Source: Candidatus Aminicenantes bacterium
GTDB taxonomy: Bacteria > Acidobacteriota > Aminicenantia > Aminicenantales > JAFGBC01
Assembly: GCA_963702005.1 (NCBI GenBank)
Contig: OY969696.1
Span: 3,584,001 to 3,648,000, forward strand
Direction: 5' to 3'
DNA length: 64,000 nt
Shown: in pieces, positions 10,265-61,451 of the stretch
Position numbering within the stretch: position 1 is the stretch's first letter
Layout: each line of letters opens with the position of its first letter
Translations under genes and position numbers: made by a program
The notes under the pieces: generated by a model
Seen by the model: only the letters and a program-made list of their open reading frames with translations
What the model was told of the DNA's origin: nothing
The model's database searches: none

Positions 10265-11244
10265 GAGTCCTCGTCGCCGGCGGCGCCGGATTCATCGGAT
10301 CCCATACCGTGAGGGAGCTCTTGGAGCGCGGCGTCGAGGTCACGATCTTCGACGACTTTTCGACCGGGCGGCGCGAGCTCGTCCCCGGCGGCAAGGCCGT
10401 CGCCGTCGTCAAGGGCGACCTCATGGACAGGGAGGCGGTCCGGGCCGCCTTCCGAAAGCGCCGCTTCGACGCCGTCCTCCACTTCGCCTCCCTGATCCAG
10501 GTCGGGGAAAGCTACAAGGACCCGGCCAAATACTACACCCACAACCTCGACACGAGTCTCAACCTCCTTGACGCCATGCGCGAGTCGGGCGTCGGGAATT
10601 TCATCTTTTCGTCGAGCGCGGCCGTCTACGGCGTCCCCGAAACGATCCCCATTCCCGAGGACCATCCCCTGAAGCCGATCAATCCCTACGGCCGGACCAA
10701 GTTGTTCGTGGAGCGCATCCTCGAGGATTACGGGCGGGCCTACGGGCTCCGTTACGTTTCGCTCCGCTATTTCAACGCGGCCGGCGCGGACCCCGAGGGC
10801 CGGCTTGGCGAGATGCACGACCCGGAGACTCACCTCATCCCCAACATTTTCCTTCATTTATTGGGGAGGGCGCCGGCCCTCGAGGTTTTCGGGACGGACT
10901 TCCCGACGCCGGACGGAACGGCCGTCCGCGACTACATCCACGTCACGGACCTGGCTGTCGCCCACGTCCTCGCCCTCGAAAAGCTCATGGCGGGCGGCAA
11001 GAGCCTCGTCCTCAACCTGGGGACGAACCGGGGTTACTCGGTCCTCGAGGTCGTCCGCAAAGCCGAGGAGGTCACCGGCCGCAAGGTCTCGATCGAGAAG
11101 CGGCCGCGCCGCGAGGGGGATGTCGCGGTCCTGCTGGCATCGAAAGAGAAAGCCGAGCGCCTGCTGGGCTGGACGCTCAGGCTCTCGGACATTGAGACGA
11201 TCATCCGGACCGCCTGGCGCTGGCATCAAAAACAAAGGACCTGA
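10261..11244 (+). CDS. galE: UDP-glucose 4-epimerase
   Basis: GGAGFIGSH, YGRTK, LRYFNAAGA and DGTAVRDYIHV motifs. Confidence 0.95.
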   Translation: MRVLVAGGAGFIGSHTVRELLERGVEVTIFDDFSTGRRELVPGGKAVAVVKGDLMDREAVRAAFRKRRFDAVLHFASLIQVGESYKDPAKYYTHNLDTSLNLLDAMRESGVGNFIFSSSAAVYGVPETIPIPEDHPLKPINPYGRTKLFVERILEDYGRAYGLRYVSLRYFNAAGADPEGRLGEMHDPETHLIPNIFLHLLGRAPALEVFGTDFPTPDGTAVRDYIHVTDLAVAHVLALEKLMAGGKSLVLNLGTNRGYSVLEVVRKAEEVTGRKVSIEKRPRREGDVAVLLASKEKAERLLGWTLRLSDIETIIRTAWRWHQKQRT

Positions 11245-11274
11245 GTCGCTTCTAAGGATAATAAGGAGGTCAGC

Positions 11275-12210
11275 ATGAATCGCGGAATGAGACGCAGGGA
11301 TTTTTTGAAGACCGGTGCGGCGGCCGGGGCGGCCGCGCTCGTCGGCGGCTTCGCCGGGGCCCGCGGGGTGACGGGCCAGCCGAGCGCGCCGCCGGACCTG
11401 GCGGTCGTCAAGGGCGCGGATTATTTCGCCGCGACGCGTAAAGCCATCGATACCCTGGGCGGAATGAAGAAGTTCGTAACGCCCGGGGCCAAGGTCGGGC
11501 TTCTCATCAACGCCCCGCTCTGGTGGCGTCTGCCGGGGAGCCACACGAACGCCGACGTCGTCCTGGCCGCGCTCCTCGCCTGCCAGGAGGCAGGGGCCGG
11601 CTCCATTCAATACCTGACCGACCCCGCGCCCGACTTCTGGACCAAGACACCCCTTTCGGCGAAATACGCCGCCGAGATCGCCTCGGTCAAGAAATGCTCG
11701 AAAAACTTCATCGAAGTCCCCGTTCCCAAAGGGACGGTCCTCAAAAAGGCCAAGGTCGTGAAAGAGCTCCTGGACTGCGACGTTTTCATCGACCTCCCCA
11801 TCATCAAGAACCACGAGGGTGTCTCCATGTCCGGGAACCTCAAGAACATGATGGGGGCCAACACGGGCGACACCAATCAGTTCTTTCACACCGGGTCCGG
11901 AACCAAGGGATCGTACGGCGACATCCCCTTCATCTCCCAGTGCATCGCCGACCTCAACACGCTGCGCCGGCCGGTCCTGTGCATCGCGGACGCGACCGTT
12001 TTCCTGATGACAAACGGCCCCCAGGGACCGGGCGAGCTGCGAAAGGCGGATAAGGTCATCGCCGGGACCGATCGGGTCGCGGCGGACGCCTACGGCGCTG
12101 GCTGCCTAGACCTCAAATCCGCCGACGTCCCGATGATCAGGAAAGCCGCCGAGCTTGGTCTGGGCCGCTTGGACTTGGACAAGCTCGCCGTCAAGGAGAT
12201 CGCGCTCTAA
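11275..12210 (+). CDS. Tat-exported DUF362 domain protein
   Basis: RRDFLK twin-arginine signal; DLPIIKNH, LKNMMG and NGPQGPG motifs. Confidence 0.82.
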   Translation: MNRGMRRRDFLKTGAAAGAAALVGGFAGARGVTGQPSAPPDLAVVKGADYFAATRKAIDTLGGMKKFVTPGAKVGLLINAPLWWRLPGSHTNADVVLAALLACQEAGAGSIQYLTDPAPDFWTKTPLSAKYAAEIASVKKCSKNFIEVPVPKGTVLKKAKVVKELLDCDVFIDLPIIKNHEGVSMSGNLKNMMGANTGDTNQFFHTGSGTKGSYGDIPFISQCIADLNTLRRPVLCIADATVFLMTNGPQGPGELRKADKVIAGTDRVAADAYGAGCLDLKSADVPMIRKAAELGLGRLDLDKLAVKEIAL

Positions 12211-12216
12211 ATCGGG

Positions 12217-12246
12217 TTGACATCCCCCGAACCGCCGGCATATATT
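12217..12246 (+). promoter_or_regulatory. Sigma70-type promoter of beta-propeller gene 1
   Basis: TTGACA (12217-12222), 18-nt spacer, TATATT (12241-12246). Confidence 0.6.
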
Positions 12247-12270
12247 GAGGTCGGCCAAAAGGAAATCACG

Positions 12271-14262
12271 ATGAAAAAGGGGTATCCGTCCGTCCGCAAA
12301 ATCGCGTTTTCGGCTTGTGCCGTCCTGATCGCGCTCGCTCTTCTGAGCCCGAATTTTGCTCCCGGCGGCGGACCGCTCGCGCCGCCCGCGGAATCGAGGA
12401 CGGTCATCGGGCCTTACGGCGGGGACATCCGGGGCTTAGCCGCCAACCCAACCAAGCCCAAAGAAGTTTATGCCGTTTCCTACTACCAAGGCCAAGTCTT
12501 CAAATCCTCTGATTCGGGGGCGTCCTGGAAGAATCTGGCCGCTTTCGATTGCGAGCTCTACGATATCGCCCTGGCTCCCTCCGATCCCAACCGTCTCTAC
12601 GTGCTCGGGCAGGAGGGCGTATCGGTTTCCGAGGACGCGGGCGCGACCTGGACGGCTCGGGCGTTCGGGACCCGCTGCTACAGCAAAGCCTCTTTGGCCG
12701 TCGACCCCAAGGATCCGGACACGATCTATGTCGCGGGCTTTTTCCAGACGGATCCGAACCGCTACTGGATCACCTCCGCGGCATTCTTCATCTCCCGGAA
12801 CGCCGGGAAGACCTGGACGACGACGAAGCTGACGCCTTCGGGCAGCTGGGGTTCGTTATCCTGCTTCGACGTGTCCCGGGATCACCCGGACGTCTTCTAT
12901 GTCGCCGGCGATTGGTGGGATACAAAGTATAAACACCATTATATCGTCTTCCGGAGCGGCAACCGCGGCAAGAGCTGGAAAAACATCTCGCCGCCTTCTC
13001 TCAATAAAATTCCGACCGCGCTGGCGGCTGATCGCGGCGATCCCGGCCGCCTTTTCCTGACCGCCGACAGGTACGTCTTGAGAAGCTCGAACGGCGGAGC
13101 GACCTGGACGTCGACGGATCTTAAAGAACCGCTGTCGGCTGTCGCCATCGATCCCGCCCATCCCTCCCTCGTCTACGCCGGGGGGAGCTCGCTGGGTTTC
13201 CGAAGCCCGGACGGCGGCCTCAATTGGACCCGGTTCACGGGGATCGGGGGAACGGTCAAGGATTTCCTGTTCGGCACCGGCCGGGTCCTGGCGGGGACTT
13301 CGGCGGGCGTCTTCAAGAGCGCCAACAACGGGCAATCCTGGAGCGCCAGCCACCAGAACCTCTGCGCCATGAATGTCGAGACCGTGCCGGTTTCGCCCTC
13401 TTCCCCCCAGGTCGTCTACGCGGCCCTGCCCGGGATCGGGCTGTCCCGGTCGGCAAACGGCGGGAAGTCCTGGGCCAGGCAGGGAACGTCTACGATCTGC
13501 GGCGGTATCGTCGACCTCGCCGTGCGCCCAGACAATCCGGATTGGTTCATCGCCTCCGTCATGGGCTGAGGCAACTCGGGCGTCTACAGGTCTGTAGACG
13601 GCGGTAAAAAAATGACTCGAGTGGCTGTCCTCTTCGCCTACGATCTGGCCTTCAGCGCGACCTCGCCCCAGGTCATTTTCGGGACCGGCTTCTCCAACGG
13701 GATCTCGTTCTTCATGTCCACGGACGGAGGGACCACCTGGGCGACGCGTTCGGTCGGAGTGCCGGGCGAGGGCCACACCCTGGCCCTGGATCCCCGGGAC
13801 GAGAATATCATCTATATCGGCGGACGGCACAGGCTCAATACCTCTACATTAACGTATGAGACGATCGTCTCCAAGAGCCTGAACGCCGGCCAAAAGTGGA
13901 CCCACATCACGGGGAAGGTCGGCGGAACGATCATTCGCGCGCTCGCGATCGATCCCGGGACGCCGAACCGGATCTTGGCCGGCTCCGACGCCGGTATTTA
14001 TCGGAGCGAGGACGGCGGGGCGAATTGGACGCAGGCTCTGTCCGCAGATATCTACTGCATGAAAATCATAGCCTCGACGCCCAAGGCGGCCTACGCCGGG
14101 GGGCCGGCCGGGCTTTACATCAGCCTGGATGCCGGCAAGACCTGGACGGAATCCGTCGAAGGGATGACGGTCAAATACGTCCAGTGTCTTGACGCGGACA
14201 AAGCCCAAAAGACGATTTATGTTGGAACTTACGGAGGGAGTATCCTTAAGATCCGGCGCTGA
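12271..14262 (+). CDS. Secreted Asp-box/BNR beta-propeller protein 1 (663 aa) with in-frame UGA at codon 433, candidate selenoprotein
   Basis: Track ORFs 12217..13569 and 13612..14262 share a frame and are separated by one TGA (13567-13569). Read-through gives ASVMG-U-GNSGVYRSVDGGKK, continuing an Asp-box. A SECIS-like hairpin follows. Confidence 0.8.
13567..13602 (+). promoter_or_regulatory. UGA plus SECIS-like hairpin
   Basis: TGA-N11-CGTCTACAG-GT-CTGTAGACG with perfect 9-nt arms. Contains CAGGTCTG, as in the E. coli fdhF SECIS apical region. Confidence 0.78.
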
Positions 14263-14305
14263 TGATTCAAGGTCCCGGCTAAAGTCCCCGTTTGGCTCCG
14301 GCCCG

Positions 14306-14335
14306 TTGACAATATGCGGCAATCTTTGTTAAAGT
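14306..14335 (+). promoter_or_regulatory. Sigma70-type promoter of beta-propeller gene 2
   Basis: TTGACA (14306-14311) and extended -10 TGnTAAAGT. Confidence 0.55.
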
Positions 14336-14377
14336 TCGTAGCAGTTCACAGGTTCCCATGAAACGGGGGATTCTTCC

Positions 14378-16360
14378 ATGAATAAAAAGATGTTTTTACT
14401 TTGCGGCGTCTGGGCCTGCCTCGGTTTCATCGGACTGGGCGCGGTTTCCGACGACCCGCCTTTCTCTCCGCCCGCGGAATCGAGGACGGTCATCGGCCCT
14501 TACGGCGGGGATATCCGGGGCTTGGACGCCAACCCGGCCAACCCTAAGGAAATCTACGCCGTCTCCTACAACAGGGGGCAGGTCTTCCGTTCCACGAATT
14601 CCGGCGAAACCTGGACAAGCATCGCCGCCTTTGATTACGAGCTCTTCGATGTCGCCGCGGCTCCCTCCAACCCGAACGTCATCTATGCCCTGGGCAAAGA
14701 GAGAATTTTCAAGTCCAGCGACAAAGGGGCGACCTGGAAGGAGTACGAGTTCGGCACGCGGAGGTACGCCACAGGGCATATCATCATCCATGCCAAGGAC
14801 CCAAACGAGGTCTACGTCGCCGGCTACTTCCAGACGGACCCAAATCGAGGGGAGGCCACCTGCCCGGCCTTCCTTAAATCCCAAACCGGCGGGAAAACCT
14901 GGACGGTGACGAAAGTCAGCACGAATTCCCTCTCCGGCTCAATGACCTGCCTCGCCCTGTCCAAGAAGCATCCCGCCGTTTTCTATGCCGGCACGACATG
15001 GCGGAATGCCTTCTATAAATACTATTATGGGTTTTGTCGGAGCGACGACGGCGGCCAGAGCTGGAAGGACATCTCGCCCGCCCTGGACGGCGCCGCGTGT
15101 GATGCGGCGGTCGATCCCGACGATCCCACCCGCGTCTTCCTGGCCGCTAGTACGACCATCTGGCGCAGTGAGAACGGCGGATCGAGCTGGGCGACGACAA
15201 AACTCCAGCCTTTAACGGCTTTGGGCATGAATCCCGCCCTCCCCCAAGTCCTCTATGCCGGAGGCTCCGGGCTGATCTACAGGAGCCTGGACGGAGGGCT
15301 CCACTGGACCCAGCCCCAGGCGTGCGGCGGTTCGGCCCAGGACTTTCTGTTCGGGTCCAGCCGGGTCCTAGCGGCTACTTCAAACGGCATTTTTAGGAGC
15401 GACAACAGCGGATCATCCTGGAAGGCCAGCCATCAGGGCTTGAGCGCCATGAACATCACGACCCTGGCCGCCGCCCCTTCCTCCTCCCAGGTCCTCTACA
15501 CAGCCGTCAGCGGCTGCGGATTGTACAGATCCGGCAACGGAGGAAAAACCTGGTTGAGGACGGGGACGGGGTCGCCCTGCGATAATATTATAAGTCTCGC
15601 CGTGTGCCCGGAAAATCCCGATTGGCTCTTCGCGACCGCCTCCGGTTGAAGCAATTATGGCGTCTACAGTTCTGTAGACGGCGGAAAGAAGATGCAGCGT
15701 CTGTCGAGTATTCTCGTCTATGCCCTGACCATCAGCCCAAAATCATCTCAAGTCATTTACGGACTGGGCTATGGGATTAAATTCTATAAGAGCTCGGACG
15801 GAGGGAAGTCCTGGGTAACCCGCGTTCTCGGAAACCAGACGTACCAAAACGCCTTGGCTCTTGATCCCGAGAATGAAAACATCATCTATATTGGCGGTTT
15901 CCACTGGACAGCATCCCTTGCGGCGCGACGAAAGGGGCGCGACCGATCCGGGTGGACGGCGGTTGTCTTTAAGAGCACGAATGGCGGACAGGCCTGGAGC
16001 GGAATCACCGGGAAGATCAAAGGGACCCGGCTTTATGCGCTCGCGGTCGATCCCAAGACGCCGTCCCGGGTTTTCGCCGGAACCGATCTCGGCCTCTACA
16101 GAAGCGAAAACTCCGGCGCGAGTTGGACCGAAGTCCTCAAGGCCGATATCAATAGCGTGAAGGTCATTTCCTCCAATCCGAAAGCCGTCTACGCCGGCGG
16201 CCCTTCGGGCCTTTATCTCAGCCTGGACAGCGGCAAGACCTGGACGAAATCCGTCGAAGGGATGACGTCCAAATACGTCCAGTGTCTTGACGCGGACAAG
16301 GCCCAGAAGACGATTTACGTTGGAACTTACGGAGGGAGTATCCTCAAGATCCGGCGCTGA
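14378..16360 (+). CDS. Secreted Asp-box/BNR beta-propeller protein 2 (660 aa) with in-frame UGA at codon 424, candidate selenoprotein
   Basis: Track ORFs 14378..15649 and 15692..16360 share a frame and are separated by one TGA (15647-15649). Read-through gives ATASG-U-SNYGVYSSVDGGKK. Paralog of the upstream gene. Confidence 0.8.
15647..15682 (+). promoter_or_regulatory. UGA plus SECIS-like hairpin
   Basis: TGA-N11-CGTCTACAG-TT-CTGTAGACG, with the same stem and spacing as in the paralog. Confidence 0.75.
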
Positions 16361-58319: not shown

Positions 58320-58790
58320 CTATTTTTTCCGATTTTTCTTAGCGCGTCCAAAATCGATATCGTCCGGGAGCTCATTGACGTCCGTCGCCGCGTCGTAGGG
58401 GAAGTGGGCCTTGAGCTTGTCCCCGGCCGACTTGATCGCGGCGACCAGGCCCTCCGTGAATTCCCTTTTCCTGAAGCTCCCGGAGAGGACCGCGGCCAGC
58501 CCGTCCCAAAACTCCTGGCCGACCTTGGCGTGAATGCCCTCGTCGCCCAAGACGGCGAACGTCCGGCGCGAAGGCACGATGAAGAACAGAATGCCGTTCC
58601 GGGCCTTGGTCTTGGTCATCCCCATCCGGACGAAGGCTTTCTCGGCGACTTTTCGGACCGATCCCCAGAAAAAGGGCGCGACCGAAACCCGGATTTCCCC
58701 CGACGTTTCGTGTTCGGCTTCCCGGATCGCTTCGCGAACCCCATCGACGTCGATGAGCTTTCTAAGTCTACGCCGTGTCATGCCTATCAT
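58320..58790 (-). CDS. TPM domain protein
   Basis: AEHETSGEIRV, GDEGIH and NELPD motifs. Confidence 0.85.
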   Translation of the reverse strand: MIGMTRRRLRKLIDVDGVREAIREAEHETSGEIRVSVAPFFWGSVRKVAEKAFVRMGMTKTKARNGILFFIVPSRRTFAVLGDEGIHAKVGQEFWDGLAAVLSGSFRKREFTEGLVAAIKSAGDKLKAHFPYDAATDVNELPDDIDFGRAKKNRKK

Positions 58791-58802
58791 CGCCGCCCTC
58801 CC

Positions 58803-59543
58803 CTACCAGGAGCCCGAGGCCCCGCCGCCGCCCGATCGGCCTCCCCCGCCGCGGAATCCCCCTCCTCCGCCGCCCCCGCCCCGGCCCCCGGACAGGATGG
58901 AAAAGAGGAGCCAGAGGGCCAAGGAGGGATTGGTGATGAACAGGATGAGAAACCCGATGACGGCCAGGATGATGAAGATTTTATTGACGGAAGACAGCGG
59001 CTTGGACTTGACGCCCTCGCCGCCCGCTTCGGCGGATTGCCCCTGGGGCCCGGCGATGGCGTCGAGAACGCCCGTCACGGCCTCGGTCACGGCCCGGTCA
59101 TTGTCGCCGGCCTGGATGCCCGGGACAAGGATATCGTTGATGATCCGTCCCGCGATGATGTCGGGGACGACCCCTTCCAGGCCGTAGCCGACTTCGATTC
59201 GCGCCCTCCGGTCCTCGGCCATGATGAACAGGACGAGGCCGTCGTCGAGGCCGCGCCGTCCCACCTGCCAGGCCTTGAAGACGCGGACCGCCCAGTCCTC
59301 GATCGGGACGCCGCCCGTCGTCCGACCGATGTAGACTAGGATTTGATGGCCGGTCGAACGCTCGAAGGATTCGAGCCGCGCGTCGAGGTCGGCCCGCGTC
59401 GCGGCGGAAATGAACCCGGCCTCATCCGTCACCCAGCGGTCGGGCGAGGGCGGGAGGGGCGTTTCCTGGGCGGCAGACCCGGCCAAGGGGACGAGGACGA
59501 GAACCGCCCCGGCCAGGATCGAAAAGACGCGCCGCGGACGCAC
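58803..59543 (-). CDS. TPM domain membrane protein (YgcG-like)
   Basis: VTDEAG and RIEVGYGLEG motifs; Gly-rich tail GGGGASGSW. Confidence 0.9.
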   Translation of the reverse strand: MRPRRVFSILAGAVLVLVPLAGSAAQETPLPPSPDRWVTDEAGFISAATRADLDARLESFERSTGHQILVYIGRTTGGVPIEDWAVRVFKAWQVGRRGLDDGLVLFIMAEDRRARIEVGYGLEGVVPDIIAGRIINDILVPGIQAGDNDRAVTEAVTGVLDAIAGPQGQSAEAGGEGVKSKPLSSVNKIFIILAVIGFLILFITNPSLALWLLFSILSGGRGGGGGGGGFRGGGGRSGGGGASGSW

Positions 59544-59570
59544 AGATAAGACTCGGCTAAATCAGTCTGA

Positions 59571-60179
59571 TCAGAACTTAACCTTGGGAGCCGTCTCTGC
59601 GCCCGCCTGGGCCTGGAAGAAGGCCTTTTCCTTGAATTTTTCGCCGAAGAATCCGGCAATCAAGACGGTGGGAAATTTGTTACGCTTCGTATTGAAGGCC
59701 TGGGCCGTCTCGTTGAAGCGCTGGCGCTCGACGGCGATCCGGTTCTCGGTCCCCTCGAGCTGGACCTGGAGGTCCCGGAAGTTTTGGGTCGCCTTGAGCT
59801 CGGGATACTTCTCGACGACGACCAGTAGCCTCGACAGGGCCGAACCCAAGCCGTCCTGGGCCGCCTGGAACTTGGCGAAGGCCTCGGGATTATTGACGAT
59901 GCTCTCGTCCAACTTGACCTGGCCGACCTTGGCCCGGGCTTCGGTTACGGCCGTGAAAGTGTCCTTCTCGAAGGCGGCGGCGCCCTTGACGGTCTCGACC
60001 AGGTTGGGTACGAGGTCGGCCCGCCTCTGGTAGACGTTTTCAACCTGGGCCCACTGGGAGCGGACGCCCTGGTCCAGCGTCACCAGCGAGTTATAGGTCC
60101 CGGCGACGCTGAAGCCGATGATGATGAGGAGCAGCACCAGGACGCCCAAACAACCGAGGAGAGTTTTGCTCTTTGCCAT
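59571..60179 (-). CDS. lemA: LemA family protein
   Basis: YQRRADLVPNLV, YPELKA and LEGTENRIAVER motifs. Confidence 0.93.
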   Translation of the reverse strand: MAKSKTLLGCLGVLVLLLIIIGFSVAGTYNSLVTLDQGVRSQWAQVENVYQRRADLVPNLVETVKGAAAFEKDTFTAVTEARAKVGQVKLDESIVNNPEAFAKFQAAQDGLGSALSRLLVVVEKYPELKATQNFRDLQVQLEGTENRIAVERQRFNETAQAFNTKRNKFPTVLIAGFFGEKFKEKAFFQAQAGAETAPKVKF

Positions 60180-60311
60180 GGTCTGTGTTTCCTTTCCTCC
60201 TGAAGTTCTCGACCCGAAGTCGAATTCATTGTATCGGGAACCCGCCCCGAATTCAAGGCGGCGTTCCCGCCGGGCCGCCTTTGTTGTTATACGCGAAAAA
60301 CCGGGATTTGT

Positions 60312-61451
60312 TTATTTCCAGATGATCCTGTACCTCTTGACGAGAGGGATGTCCTCGTCGCCTTCGTTGGCCCATGTGTATATACTGTCGTTCTTAATGA
60401 CTTCAACCCGTTCCCGTTCATCCAGCGGGAATCTGGAGATATAGCGCCCCTCCGGATCGAAGACATCAAAATAGGTTCCGCCCTTGCCGTCCTTTTCATA
60501 GGTCTTAACATATATTTTGCCGACGTCATCGCTCACAATCCGGGAAGCGACGGGATATTGCCCCGGGAATTCATATTGAACTTGAATCCCGCCCGACCGG
60601 GACCGCTCTTCCTTCAAGATTTTTTCTTTATCCGCGTCCGTAATCTTGACGGATGGATGGTCCTTGAGGATTCGTTTGACCGTGACGCCCTTTGCGTTCA
60701 CGACATGGATATCGTAGGCCGAGGTATGGAGCCATATGAATTCGTCGTTTTTCGACACGGCGAAAATGCAGGTGGGAGCGAACGGATTCATCATCCCACG
60801 CTTTCCGATCGCCTGAGCGGAATGATAATTGGCGATCGGTTTGAAGGACGCGTCGAGCTTTATCAATTCCTCAAGCCCCTTAGGATCCCGGCTCATCTTA
60901 AGCAGATAAATATCCCCCTTGGAATCCATAATAAAATATCCCATCGGAAGACGACCCGCGTCTACAGTCTTCAGGACCGTTCCCTCGGGCGTCAGATAGG
61001 TCAAGCGGCGGCTCAGGACGTCGTAGACGACGAGGTCTCCATTCGGCCTGATCCAGATCTGGCCCGGCCCGCTGTATTCCCCCGGCCCCTGCCCGCTCTT
61101 ACCGAAGGCTCGCAGGAACCTCCCCTTAGGATCGAAGACTCTGATTATTATTGATTTAGGGTCTATGGTGTAAATATTTCCGTCCTCATCGACGGCCAGA
61201 GAGTTCAGCCAAGAGAACCAATAATTTTCTTTGTCCTGATTTCGTCCGATGACAAGCTCTTCCACGATGGAAGCGGTTGAACGATATCCCGGAGGCGGGA
61301 CGGGAAGGTTGGGATTTCGGACAACAGTCACCCCGTCTTCGGTCTTGACGCTTATGGCCTGAGGCCGCAGGATAGCGGGCTCCAACAGGACCTCGACTAA
61401 GACGATCGCTGAGATCCCAATTCGGCAGCAAGCCAGGAATCGTCTATTCAT
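60312..61451 (-). CDS. Secreted 6-bladed (NHL-like) beta-propeller
   Basis: GKSGQGPGEY, VDEDGNIY and DVFDPEGRY motifs. Confidence 0.8.
   Translation of the reverse strand: MNRRFLACCRIGISAIVLVEVLLEPAILRPQAISVKTEDGVTVVRNPNLPVPPPGYRSTASIVEELVIGRNQDKENYWFSWLNSLAVDEDGNIYTIDPKSIIIRVFDPKGRFLRAFGKSGQGPGEYSGPGQIWIRPNGDLVVYDVLSRRLTYLTPEGTVLKTVDAGRLPMGYFIMDSKGDIYLLKMSRDPKGLEELIKLDASFKPIANYHSAQAIGKRGMMNPFAPTCIFAVSKNDEFIWLHTSAYDIHVVNAKGVTVKRILKDHPSVKITDADKEKILKEERSRSGGIQVQYEFPGQYPVASRIVSDDVGKIYVKTYEKDGKGGTYFDVFDPEGRYISRFPLDERERVEVIKNDSIYTWANEGDEDIPLVKRYRIIWK

What the first reader, a model, noticed from the sequence alone, without database searches (positions are those of the whole stretch)
12271..16360. 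Two tandem secreted beta-propeller paralogs share an in-frame UGA plus SECIS-like hairpin: candidate exported selenoprotein family
Seen: each gene is broken by exactly one TGA (13567-13569; 15647-15649) at the same aligned residue (ASVMG-U-GNSGVYRSVDGG; ATASG-U-SNYGVYSSVDGG). The frame continues straight into an Asp-box and about 230 more residues. Eleven nt after each TGA is the stem CGTCTACAG-(GT/TT)-CTGTAGACG, identical except for one loop base, although the neighbouring codons have diverged. It uses TCT/GTA codons atypical for this GC-rich DNA. Known: the E. coli fdhF SECIS has its upper stem 11 nt after UGA with apical CAGGUCUG, an 8-mer found verbatim in paralog 1 (13587-13594). Inference: both genes encode ~660-aa Sec-containing, signal-peptide-bearing BNR propellers. 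I do not know this fold as an established selenoprotein family, and standard annotation would split each into two genes.
Basis: partly seen in the sequence, partly recalled or inferred. Interest (0 to 1): 0.93.

Follow-up and report, generated by a model that had tools for sequence, protein, structure and literature searches.

The report
New exported beta-propeller selenoprotein family
The two neighbouring genes are intact members of a secreted double-propeller protein family that most likely uses selenocysteine, and this bacterium carries fourteen such copies, several of them beside its selenocysteine machinery.

Summary
Both window genes have one in-frame TGA (13567-69, 15647-49) at the same aligned residue. 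Eleven nt later comes the hairpin CGTCTACAG-G/T-TCTGTAGACG.

The genome (Candidatus Aminicenantes by relatives' record titles, 4.31 Mb) has selA, selD, selB and tRNA-Sec(UCA) in one cluster.

It holds 14 paralogs with exactly one internal stop, always TGA, always at this column, always followed by this hairpin. One paralog has Cys there and five have other residues and no hairpin.

The hairpin shows compensatory changes. It uses the rare codons AGG-TCT-GTA only after a TGA (10 of 10 against 0 of 78). It meets published bacterial SECIS criteria in 22 of 23 cases. Its apex equals the E. coli fdhF apex.

TGA plus hairpin recur in seven other genomes, all with selA (class background 45 of 201). 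dN/dS is equal on both sides of the TGA.

The fold is a GH74-like tandem propeller (pLDDT 90.5).

Five copies abut selA. One sits in an operon with TlpA-type thioredoxins and a NapH-like ferredoxin.

The family is not among 119 families catalogued in 2026.

Verdict: very likely a real, undescribed selenoprotein family. Its chemistry is unknown; I infer a Cys-Sec redox pair.

The parts
12271..14262 (+). Gene 1: read-through ORF of 663 aa plus terminal TGA. N-terminal signal-like segment, then a tandem BNR/Asp-box beta-propeller.
   Evidence: Translation. Pfam Sortilin-Vps10, PSII_BNR and BNR. AlphaFold2 model with pLDDT 90.5. GH74-like fold.
13498..13500 (+). TGC, Cys410. Candidate partner of the Sec, 23 residues upstream, immediately before the strand that opens the same blade.
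   Evidence: Sequence. Alignment A1 column about 538 has Cys in 8 of 12 Sec paralogs and 0 of 6 non-Sec paralogs. Proximity is inferred, not measured.
13567..13569 (+). In-frame TGA of gene 1, read as Sec433.
13581..13600 (+). SECIS hairpin of gene 1: 8-bp stem, GGUC loop, encodes (G)VYRSVD.
   Evidence: Apex identical to E. coli fdhF.
14378..16360 (+). Gene 2: read-through ORF of 660 aa plus terminal TGA. Paralog of gene 1, 55% identical.
15578..15580 (+). TGC, Cys401 of gene 2, at the same spacing from the Sec (23 residues).
15647..15649 (+). In-frame TGA of gene 2, read as Sec424.
15661..15680 (+). SECIS hairpin of gene 2: 8-bp stem, GUUC loop.

Best explanation
Both genes are intact selenoprotein genes.

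Decoding: the ribosome reads the single internal UGA as selenocysteine. The mRNA hairpin placed 11 nt downstream (8-bp stem, apical GGUC or GUUC, the same apex as in E. coli fdhF) recruits SelB carrying Sec-tRNA(Sec). The organism encodes selA, selD, selB and tRNA-Sec.

Product: a roughly 660-aa exported protein folded as two tandem seven-bladed BNR/Asp-box propellers, like GH74 xyloglucanases. It lacks a conserved GH74 catalytic Asp pair.

Position of the Sec: it sits in the loop after the second strand of the second blade of the C-terminal propeller.

Family: the genes belong to a family expanded to 14 Sec copies in this Aminicenantes genome. Given the shared hairpin, Sec appears ancestral and was repeatedly replaced by Cys or other residues.

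Inferred, not shown: Sec forms a redox pair (selenenylsulfide) with a Cys 23 residues upstream on the neighbouring strand. Co-encoded envelope TlpA-type thioredoxins, fed by a NapH-like membrane ferredoxin, would recycle it. The substrate is unknown.
For: In-frame TGA:
- Of 21 paralog regions examined, 14 have exactly one internal stop. It is TGA in 14 of 14 and lies at one aligned column. Their terminal stops are TGA 6, TAA 5, TAG 3.
- The one clearly decayed copy (1976719-1978579) has mixed stops: TAG, TAA, TGA, TAA.

Hairpin:
- All 14 copies carry it 12 or 15 nt after the TGA.
- In 23 aligned elements, 97.8% of cells pair. Two pairs show compensatory change: GC to AU in 5 sequences and AU to UA in 2, the latter changing the protein to VFRSED. 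No shuffle of 500 reached the observed covariation score.
- The codon triple AGG-TCT-GT(A/G) occurs in 10 of 10 Asp-box motifs that follow a TGA and in 0 of 78 other Asp-box motifs of the same 18 genes.
- 22 of 23 elements meet the four bSECIS criteria (PMC13188914, section 5, read).
- The apex matches fdhF.

Machinery:
- selA, selD, selB and tRNA-SeC(UCA) are present.
- selA was found in all 8 distinct genomes with TGA forms: G000, G001, G040, G117, G149 (which I take to be the same genome as G208, from identical selA coordinates and E-value), G209, G210 and G211. The background is 45 of 201 sampled genomes of the class.

Cys homologs:
- One own paralog and 6 of 49 full-length database representatives have Cys at the column.
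- Sec/Cys sister pairs have 100% SH-aLRT support.

Downstream part is translated:
- dN/dS is 0.31, 0.43 and 0.22 after the TGA, against 0.35, 0.40 and 0.24 before it, in three ortholog pairs.
- The TGA lies inside a blade of a confidently modelled closed propeller.

Linkage:
- Five copies lie directly upstream of selA and two lie downstream.
- In G117 the TGA gene lies about 5 kb from selA.

Redox context:
- The operon runs BNR-Sec, outer-membrane barrel, TlpA-like (WCVPC), Fer4_5 protein, TlpA-like lipoprotein. The barrel and/or TlpA genes recur next to the Sec gene in G001, G040, G211 (bin34) and L053; the Fer4_5 protein was seen next to a Sec gene only in G001.
Against: - No experiment shows selenium in the protein, and no RNA run was found.
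- In this assembly selB is split by a one-base frame change after about codon 36. It is in one frame from position 1 in G117, G149, G040 and G001, so this may be an assembly error or a real defect.
- Two of the 14 copies also show a frame change in their N-terminal halves.
- Gene 2 and one other copy have GUUC or AGUUCC loops. The second G is critical in E. coli (recalled).
- Most family members have neither Sec nor Cys at the column: 43 of 49 representatives and 5 own paralogs. The residue is therefore not needed for the fold.
- The TlpA and Fer4_5 neighbours also accompany non-Sec, non-Cys homologs in G003 and G011. This weakens the idea that they serve the Sec.
- The partner Cys is missing in 4 of 12 Sec paralogs.
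- Rfam has no match.
- No second selenoprotein family was found in this genome for comparing SECIS elements.
Confidence: 0.88

Rival explanations
1. Selenium-independent read-through. The hairpin stimulates suppression of UGA by a near-cognate tRNA (Trp, Cys or Arg), so the full-length protein is made without selenocysteine.
For: The computations show that the region downstream of the TGA is translated and that the hairpin is under selection. They do not show which residue is inserted. selB is frame-shifted in this assembly.
Against: - The apex is the SelB-binding apex of fdhF, at nearly the same distance from the UGA.
- selA is present in 8 of 8 genomes with the TGA form, against 45 of 201 in the class.
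- The genes cluster with selA, selD, selB and selC.
- Replacement by Cys in sister proteins is the usual mark of Sec.
Confidence: 0.07
2. TGA is a true stop. Each locus gives a roughly 430-aa N-terminal protein and a separately started C-terminal protein of roughly 220 aa (a split gene or pseudogene).
For: In the two window genes an ATG lies 14 codons after the TGA (ORFs 13612..14262 and 15692..16360). Public gene calls contain such fragments: 7 N-terminal and 2 C-terminal among the best 150 representatives.
Against: - 14 of 14 internal stops are TGA at one column.
- Other paralogs show no Met just after the TGA in the stretches printed.
- The break falls inside a blade of a closed propeller.
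- Purifying selection is equal on both sides.
- The TGA and hairpin are conserved across families of the class and in MAGs labelled Zixibacteriota and Eubacteriales.
Confidence: 0.03
3. The palindrome is a by-product of the conserved Asp-box peptide VYRSVDGG, or is a dispersed DNA repeat, and has no role in decoding.
For: The hairpin encodes a conserved structural motif of the fold. It is the only stretch that paralog contigs share at the DNA level (33-nt pieces at 15657-15689).
Against: - None of the 78 other Asp-box motifs uses these codons. This includes LYRSVNAG at the same column of a non-Sec paralog, encoded CTC TAT CGC AGC GTG AAC.
- The compensatory changes alter the peptide in order to keep pairing.
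- In every BNR gene examined the palindrome follows the TGA in frame at 12 or 15 nt; 4 of the 13 pattern matches lay outside any BNR homolog.
Confidence: 0.02

Closest known systems
E. coli fdhF (formate dehydrogenase H) UGA-SECIS unit, the reference bacterial Sec-decoding element
   Same: An in-frame UGA, 11 nt, then a stem-loop inside the coding sequence. The apical 8-mer CAGGUCUG is identical. The element is read by SelB with tRNA-Sec (established knowledge).
   Different: The stem here is a perfect 8-bp palindrome, with no bulged U visible in the sequence. The apex starts 17 or 20 nt after the UGA rather than 16. The host protein is unrelated: an exported propeller, not a molybdopterin enzyme.
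GH74 xyloglucanases (for example PDB 5fkt, 2cn3, 6mgj)
   Same: Tandem seven-bladed Asp-box propeller fold. Foldseek E 7e-28, TM 0.69. Profile E 2e-40.
   Different: Identity is only 16-18%. No Asp is conserved where GH74 has YAR(A)D-IGG in the first blade, or in the corresponding blade of the second propeller (my reading of A1; the register is inferred). A Sec/Cys column is not a GH74 feature that I know of (recalled).
Predicted exported or envelope selenoproteins listed in the 2026 catalogue (for example TonB-dependent receptor of FCYXU type, GSU2204/MtrB-like barrel, UshA-like, DsbA/DsbG-like, SaoB/SaoX)
   Same: Computationally predicted bacterial selenoproteins that work outside the cytoplasm. 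Several do not have a thioredoxin fold (PMC13188914, Table 1, read).
   Different: None of them is a BNR/Asp-box, Sortilin-Vps10 or GH74-like propeller. None of the listed domain ids matched here. I know of no report of 14 paralogs of one family in one genome (recalled).
NCBIfam NF045728 'F510_1955 family glycosylhydrolase'
   Same: Both window proteins score above its cut-off: 201 and 219 bits against 175.
   Different: The model has 246 positions and is matched in 5 stretches along proteins of about 660 aa. The score therefore sums repeated blades and does not show equivalence. The name says nothing about selenium.

Membership tests
Bacterial selenoprotein (SelB/SECIS-decoded UGA) | In-frame UGA with the reading frame continuing on both sides | tested here: met
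   There are 452 and 435 sense codons in frame before the TGA (counted from the previous stop, so they include codons upstream of the chosen ATG) and 230 and 236 after it.
Bacterial selenoprotein (SelB/SECIS-decoded UGA) | bSECIS: 4-16 bp stem, 3-9 nt loop with G in its first two places, 16-37 nt from the UGA, MFE at or below -7.5 kcal/mol (criteria from PMC13188914, section 5) | tested here: met
   22 of 23 elements pass, including both window elements (stem 8 bp, loop GGUC or GUUC, spacing 19 nt, -9.6 kcal/mol). The one failure is L059 at -6.7 kcal/mol.
Bacterial selenoprotein (SelB/SECIS-decoded UGA) | selA, selB, selC and selD in the genome | tested here: met
   selA 561.7 bits, selD 364.6 bits, selB 255.3 bits (288.1 with its neighbours in the frame), tRNA-Sec 73.8 bits with anticodon UCA. 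Caveat: selB shows a one-base frame change after about codon 36 in this assembly.
Bacterial selenoprotein (SelB/SECIS-decoded UGA) | Homologs with Cys at the Sec column | tested here: met
   One own paralog (GQCGYSG) and 6 of 49 full-length representatives have Cys. The other 43 have other residues or a gap.
Bacterial selenoprotein (SelB/SECIS-decoded UGA) | UGA-containing orthologs in other Sec-using organisms | tested here: met
   G001, G040, G117, G149 (taken as the same genome as G208), G209 (Zixibacteriota MAG), G210 and G211. All have selA.
Bacterial selenoprotein (SelB/SECIS-decoded UGA) | Selenium physically present at the UGA position | not testable with these tools
   Needs 75Se labelling or mass spectrometry.
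Glycoside hydrolase family 74 | Tandem seven-bladed beta-propeller fold | tested here: met
   Model pLDDT 90.5. The top 20 PDB matches are GH74 enzymes, TM up to 0.69.
Glycoside hydrolase family 74 | Two catalytic Asp residues, one in each propeller | tested here: inconclusive
   No conserved Asp in the corresponding loops of A1. However, the HMMER alignments to GH74 were shifted by whole repeats and no superposition was possible, so the equivalence is inferred.
Sortilin/Vps10 domain (PF15902) | Ten-bladed propeller followed by the 10CC module | tested here: not met
   The Pfam score is above the cut-off, but the best stretch covers profile positions 2-112 (gene 1) or 2-118 (gene 2) of 446. 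SorLA Vps10 domain structures align at TM 0.21-0.23. The model shows two propellers.
NCBIfam NF045728 (F510_1955 family glycosylhydrolase, equivalog) | Full-length match to the 246-position model | tested here: inconclusive
   Above the cut-off only as the sum of 5 repeated partial stretches.

The most novel reading that the evidence does not exclude
This is a previously unrecognised envelope selenoenzyme system.

- A GH74-like double propeller carries a Cys-x22-Sec selenenylsulfide switch on the face of its second propeller.
- Dedicated TlpA-type thioredoxins and a NapH-like membrane ferredoxin keep the switch reduced.
- The propeller acts on an extracellular substrate, either reducing it or capturing it.
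- The family is amplified to 14 copies and has become a principal client of the Sec machinery in this Aminicenantes lineage. That would explain why the copies flank selA-selD-selB-selC.
Probability: 0.3. Interest if true: 0.85.

Novelty: new member of a known kind. Interest (0 to 1): 0.72.

Why it matters
Nearly all known bacterial selenoproteins are small thiol oxidoreductases or metal-cofactor enzymes. According to a 2026 review, most have thioredoxin-like folds (PMC13188914, section 7).

This family would be different in four ways:
- It is a large exported carbohydrate-hydrolase-like propeller with a single Sec.
- It has 14 copies in one genome.
- It is physically linked to the Sec genes.
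- It would widen the known structural range of selenium biochemistry.

It would also add a candidate envelope redox system in an uncultured, widespread sediment and wetland phylum.

There is a practical side. Public gene calls split these genes: 7 N-terminal and 2 C-terminal fragments appear among the 150 best representatives. Annotation pipelines and selenoprotein catalogues are therefore missing them.

The near-invariant, fdhF-like SECIS also makes the family easy to test in E. coli-type reporter systems.

Tried and rejected
Rfam: no match in the whole window at gathering thresholds. Only four chance-level hits, none a SECIS family, in 13500-15800 at E up to 10.

The search for related loci with alignment A1 failed because no stretch was conserved enough. 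I scanned genome contigs with a DNA pattern of the hairpin instead.

Other selenoproteins in this genome:
- A scan for G[GT]TC-loop hairpins after in-frame TGAs returned 21 hits. They were the 14 BNR TGA sites minus one with a widened loop, one out-of-frame duplicate, and 7 others. The 7 others translate to non-coding-looking sequence or are an ordinary stop.
- A codon-usage screen of all read-through TGAs gave 539 candidates. This was too noisy and I dropped it.
- Family searches found no in-frame stop in SelD, Prx/AhpC-TSA (9 matches) or FlpD, and no FdhA above its cut-off.
- The GrdA search matched nothing, but its control rang in no genome, so it says nothing.
- I therefore cannot say whether the BNR family is the only selenoprotein family here.

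GH74 catalytic residues: the profile-to-PDB alignments were shifted by whole repeats and the model's coordinates are not exposed. I could not superpose the model on GH74 or measure the Cys410-Sec433 distance.

Expression: no RNA holder is listed for the stretch.

Laying contigs of four DNA runs: contigs of three runs (X1, X2, X3) cover 13567-13569, and none of the listed differences falls there. The list shown ends at 14986 and 80 further rows are not shown. I therefore cannot judge the second TGA, and the first is not fully judged either.

Print searches:
- 'selenoprotein' + 'BNR' + 'selenocysteine': 0 papers.
- 'Aminicenantes' + 'selenocysteine': 1 paper, which looks unrelated from its listing and abstract start.
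- 'selenocysteine' + 'propeller' + 'in-frame UGA' + 'bacterial': 0 papers.
- Term look-ups for BNR, sortilin, propeller, glycosyl, Ycf48 and (in PMC13188914 only) Asp-box found nothing in PMC13188914, PMC12013277 or PMC13326102.
- I read Table 1 of PMC13188914 in full.
- Supplementary tables (for example the BSepDB family list and deep-Sep Table S2) were closed and may hold entries I could not see.


Full report
OBSERVATION

Gene 1 (12271-14262) and gene 2 (14378-16360) each contain one in-frame TGA, at 13567-13569 and 15647-15649. Read through, they give proteins of 663 and 660 residues with the contexts ASVMG-U-GNSGVYRSVDGG and ATASG-U-SNYGVYSSVDGG.

Eleven bases after each TGA lies a 20-base palindrome: CGTCTACAGGTCTGTAGACG at 13581-13600 and CGTCTACAGTTCTGTAGACG at 15661-15680. 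The window holds only these two sites at up to two mismatches, against none in 100 shuffles. Each folds as an 8-bp stem with a 4-base loop.

I checked the comparison with E. coli fdhF on the K-12 record. TGA codon 140 is followed by 11 bases, then GGTTGCAGGTCTGCACC. CAGGTCTG begins 16 bases after the TGA. In gene 1 it begins 17 bases after. Ordinary ORF calling splits each gene in two.

ORGANISM AND SEC MACHINERY

The window is G000:C1:3584001-3648000 of a single 4.31-Mb contig, 60.4% G+C. Record titles of close relatives name Candidatus Aminicenantes.

One cluster holds all the Sec genes:
- selA, 765451-766824, 561.7 bits
- selD, 767020-767940, 364.6 bits
- selB, 768099-769995, over the cut-off
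- tRNA-SeC with anticodon UCA, 770011-770106

.

One caveat: in this assembly the first 32 or so residues of selB, which include the P-loop, lie in a different frame from the rest. The change occurs around 768187-768194, next to a GAAGAAGAAG...GGGGG stretch. In G117, G149, G040 and G001 the selB match starts at position 1 in one frame. I cannot tell an assembly error from a real lesion.

THE FAMILY IN THIS GENOME

A tblastn search with the two proteins found about 21 full-length paralog regions.

- Fourteen have exactly one internal stop. It is TGA in 14 of 14 and always at the same aligned column (G-U-G/S...VYRSVDGG). Their terminal stops are TGA 6, TAA 5 and TAG 3.
- One paralog has Cys at the column (GQCGYSG).
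- Five have other residues.
- One region (1976719-1978579) carries several stops of mixed kind and looks decayed.
- Two of the fourteen (the copies with TGA at 3456209 and 756866) have their N-terminal halves in another frame.

All fourteen carry the hairpin 12 or 15 bases after the TGA, counted to the GTC or ATC codon.

IS THE HAIRPIN AN RNA SIGNAL OR ONLY THE FOOTPRINT OF THE ASP-BOX PEPTIDE?

Four tests say it is an RNA signal.

1. Covariation. I aligned 23 elements: 13 own, 6 from G001 and G040, and 4 from other public genomes. The own copy at 756866 was left out because no fetched locus covered it. In the alignment 97.8% of cells pair. The outer G-C pair is A-U in 5 sequences. An inner A-U pair is U-A in 2 sequences, which changes the peptide to VFRSED. 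No shuffle of 500 reached the observed covariation score, and slid registers pair at 16-53%.

2. Codon choice. In the 18 aligned paralog genes, 88 Asp-box motifs matched my pattern. All 10 that follow a TGA use AGG-TCT-GT(A/G). None of the other 78 does. This includes LYRSVNAG at the same column of a non-Sec paralog. These codons are rare here: AGG 13.5%, TCT 6.2%, GTA 5.0%.

3. Consensus. 22 of 23 elements satisfy the four published criteria for bacterial SECIS elements: stem 7-8 bp, loop GGUC, GUUC or AGUUCC, 18-22 nt from the UGA, and -7.9 to -9.6 kcal/mol. The exception folds at -6.7 (criteria read in PMC13188914, section 5).

4. Paralog contigs. In public metagenome contigs, pieces from paralogs align to gene 2 only over the 33 bases of the hairpin.

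Rfam has no model that matches.

IS THE PART AFTER THE TGA TRANSLATED?

In three ortholog pairs between G000 and G001, dN/dS after the TGA is 0.31, 0.43 and 0.22. Before the TGA it is 0.35, 0.40 and 0.24. The other paralogs show no Met just after the TGA in the stretches printed. The TGA falls between two strands of one blade of a closed propeller.

OTHER GENOMES

- Among 40 relatives, G001 (same genus) has 5 matches with one TGA, and G040 (another family of the order) has one. Orthologs keep both the TGA and the hairpin.
- In an even sample of 201 genomes of the class, 4 have a match at E of 1e-40 or better: G000, G040, G117 and G149. Every match outside G000 has one TGA.
- A scan of 185,579 species genomes for the exact hairpin core 13-16 bases after TGA gave 13 loci. 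Nine lie in homologs with the TGA at the column: four loci of one Aminicenantes MAG, two further Aminicenantes MAGs, one 'uncultured bacterium' MAG, one MAG labelled Zixibacteriota and one MAG labelled Eubacteriales. The other four have no homolog.
- selA is present in all 8 distinct genomes with the TGA form. G208 and G149 gave identical selA coordinates and E-value, so I count them as one genome. In the class sample selA occurs in 45 of 201 genomes. These genomes are related to each other, so this is not a formal statistic.
- In G117 the TGA gene (C5:52048-53931) lies about 5 kb from selA-selB (58660-61168).
- In G000, five copies (756150-764679) directly precede selA and two follow the tRNA (772368-774833 and 780281-782771).

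CYS HOMOLOGS AND HISTORY

A full HMMER scan of 1.84 billion representatives gave 54,648 hits at E of 0.001 or better, which shows how large the BNR superfamily is.

Among the best 150:
- 49 are full-length single-stretch relatives. Six have Cys at the column, in contexts such as GGCG..DVYRS. The other 43 have other residues or a gap.
- 7 are N-terminal fragments that end exactly before the column (...LAGG, ...SVVG).
- 2 are C-terminal fragments.

.

I built a quick maximum-likelihood tree of 58 rows (18 Sec, 7 Cys, 33 other). The rows were the 18 aligned own paralogs, 34 of the 49 representatives, and 6 read-through orthologs. On this tree Sec forms are interspersed with the others. At least 8 changes are forced by well-supported branches. 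There are Sec/Cys sister groups at 100% SH-aLRT; the window pair is sister to the own Cys paralog plus P0003.

Because the hairpin is nearly identical in all Sec forms, I infer one origin of the Sec codon and its SECIS, followed by repeated loss to Cys or to other residues. The tree is unrooted and quick, so this stays an inference.

FOLD

Pfam gives Sortilin-Vps10 (partial), PSII_BNR and BNR. NCBIfam gives NF045728, 'F510_1955 family glycosylhydrolase', over its cut-off, but as five partial stretches to a 246-position model.

AlphaFold2 with the 18-paralog alignment gives pLDDT 90.5 and pTM 0.87. Foldseek places GH74 xyloglucanases first (E 7e-28, TM 0.69, 16-18% identity) and sortilin-type propellers far behind (TM about 0.2).

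I count thirteen Asp-boxes in gene 1 (my reading), which fits two seven-bladed propellers. Sec433 follows strand 426-432 and precedes strand 437-441, in the blade of the ninth Asp-box.

The GH74 motif YAR(A)D-IGG-AYRW holds the residue that differs between the two 2cn2/2cn3 chains (D against A). I recall it as the catalytic Asp. It occupies the same kind of loop one blade earlier. I see no conserved Asp at the corresponding places of alignment A1. The register comes from repeat-shifted HMMER alignments and not from a superposition, so this point is inconclusive.

WHAT THE SEC MAY DO

This section is inference.

A Cys lies 23 residues before the Sec in both window genes (Cys410 at 13498-13500 and Cys401 at 15578-15580). 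It is present in 8 of 12 aligned Sec paralogs, 0 of 6 non-Sec paralogs, and 8 of 9 Sec loci from the pattern scan.

In the model this Cys immediately precedes strand 411-418, which is antiparallel to strand 426-432, the strand that ends at the Sec. The two residues should therefore be neighbours, which would allow a selenenylsulfide. I could not measure the distance.

The Sec copy at 782771-780281 heads an operon with:
- an OmpW-like barrel,
- a TlpA-like thioredoxin (WCVPC),
- a Fer4_5 (NapH-type) membrane ferredoxin,
- a TlpA-like lipoprotein (WCGPC).

A TlpA-DUF6029 fusion lies nearby. The barrel and/or TlpA genes recur beside the Sec gene in G001, G040, G211 (bin34) and L053; the Fer4_5 gene was seen beside a Sec gene only in G001. 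The TlpA and Fer4_5 genes also recur beside homologs with neither Sec nor Cys in G003 and G011.

I therefore propose an envelope redox module in which the propeller's Cys-Sec pair is the business end. I put this at about 30-35% only. The two window genes themselves have uninformative neighbours: an epimerase, a TAT-signal DUF362 protein and a LysM lytic transglycosylase.

COMPARISON WITH WHAT IS KNOWN

The decoding unit is canonical and close to that of fdhF. The protein family is not in the 2026 catalogue of 119 prokaryotic selenoprotein families and subfamilies (PMC13188914, Table 1, read in full).

The words BNR, sortilin, propeller, glycosyl and Ycf48 do not occur in that review or in the main texts of the deep-Sep and BSepDB papers; Asp-box was looked up only in the review and is also absent. 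Three full-text searches found nothing relevant. No NCBIfam selenoprotein model matches.

The review (section 9) describes selenoprotein operons such as SAO with six selenoprotein genes. In that section and in my searches I found no report of a single family with 14 Sec paralogs in one genome, or of such genes flanking the sel genes.

VERDICT

This is very likely (about 0.88) a genuine selenoprotein family that has not been described. It is decoded in the ordinary bacterial way, and it is unusual in its fold, its export, its copy number and its linkage to the Sec genes. Selenium insertion and the chemistry of the site remain to be shown.

Noticed in passing
G000:C1:768099-769995 (L001:1413-3312), outside the window: In this assembly selB is in two frames. 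The first 32 or so residues, which include GHIDHGKS, are in one frame. The rest, starting MTIELGF, is in another. The switch lies next to GAAGAAGAAG...GGGGG. In four relatives the selB match starts at position 1 in one frame.
   Followed up: partly
G000:C1:3455038-3456934 and 756150-758163, outside the window: Two of the 14 TGA-containing paralogs have N-terminal and C-terminal halves in different frames. This is either a frame change or an assembly indel. The ortholog of the first is in one piece in G001 (L030).
   Followed up: partly
G000:C1:1976572-1978579, outside the window: One paralog copy carries several stops of mixed kind (TAG, TAA, TGA, TAA) and looks like a decayed pseudogene. It is a useful contrast to the single-TGA copies.
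   Followed up: no
G000:C1:772368-774833 and 780281-782771 (L070:2368-4833 and 10281-12771): Two Sec paralogs carry an extra C-terminal extension of about 160 aa (alignment columns about 846-1018) that the other copies lack. Its fold and family were not examined.
   Followed up: no
G000:C1:774988-777033 (L070:4988-7033): A 681-aa protein fuses an N-terminal TlpA/AhpC-TSA thioredoxin domain (WCVPC) to a large C-terminal part that matches DUF6029 only at its end (residues 646-676). It is conserved next to the Sec gene in G001 and L053.
   Followed up: partly
window 15657-15689: Contigs of other paralogs from public wetland metagenomes align to gene 2 only across these 33 bases (the hairpin). One loose end shows a paralog's ...GGAGGCTGAGGGGCGG junction.
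   Followed up: no
window 16100-16360 versus 14000-14262: The last 36 or so residues of the two window proteins are almost identical (SVEGMT.KYVQCLDADKAQKTIYVGTYGGSILKIRR), although the proteins are 55% identical overall. This suggests recent gene conversion at the 3' ends.
   Followed up: no
window 11275-12210: The gene just upstream encodes a DUF362 protein with a twin-arginine (TAT) signal. I established no link to the selenoprotein genes.
   Followed up: no
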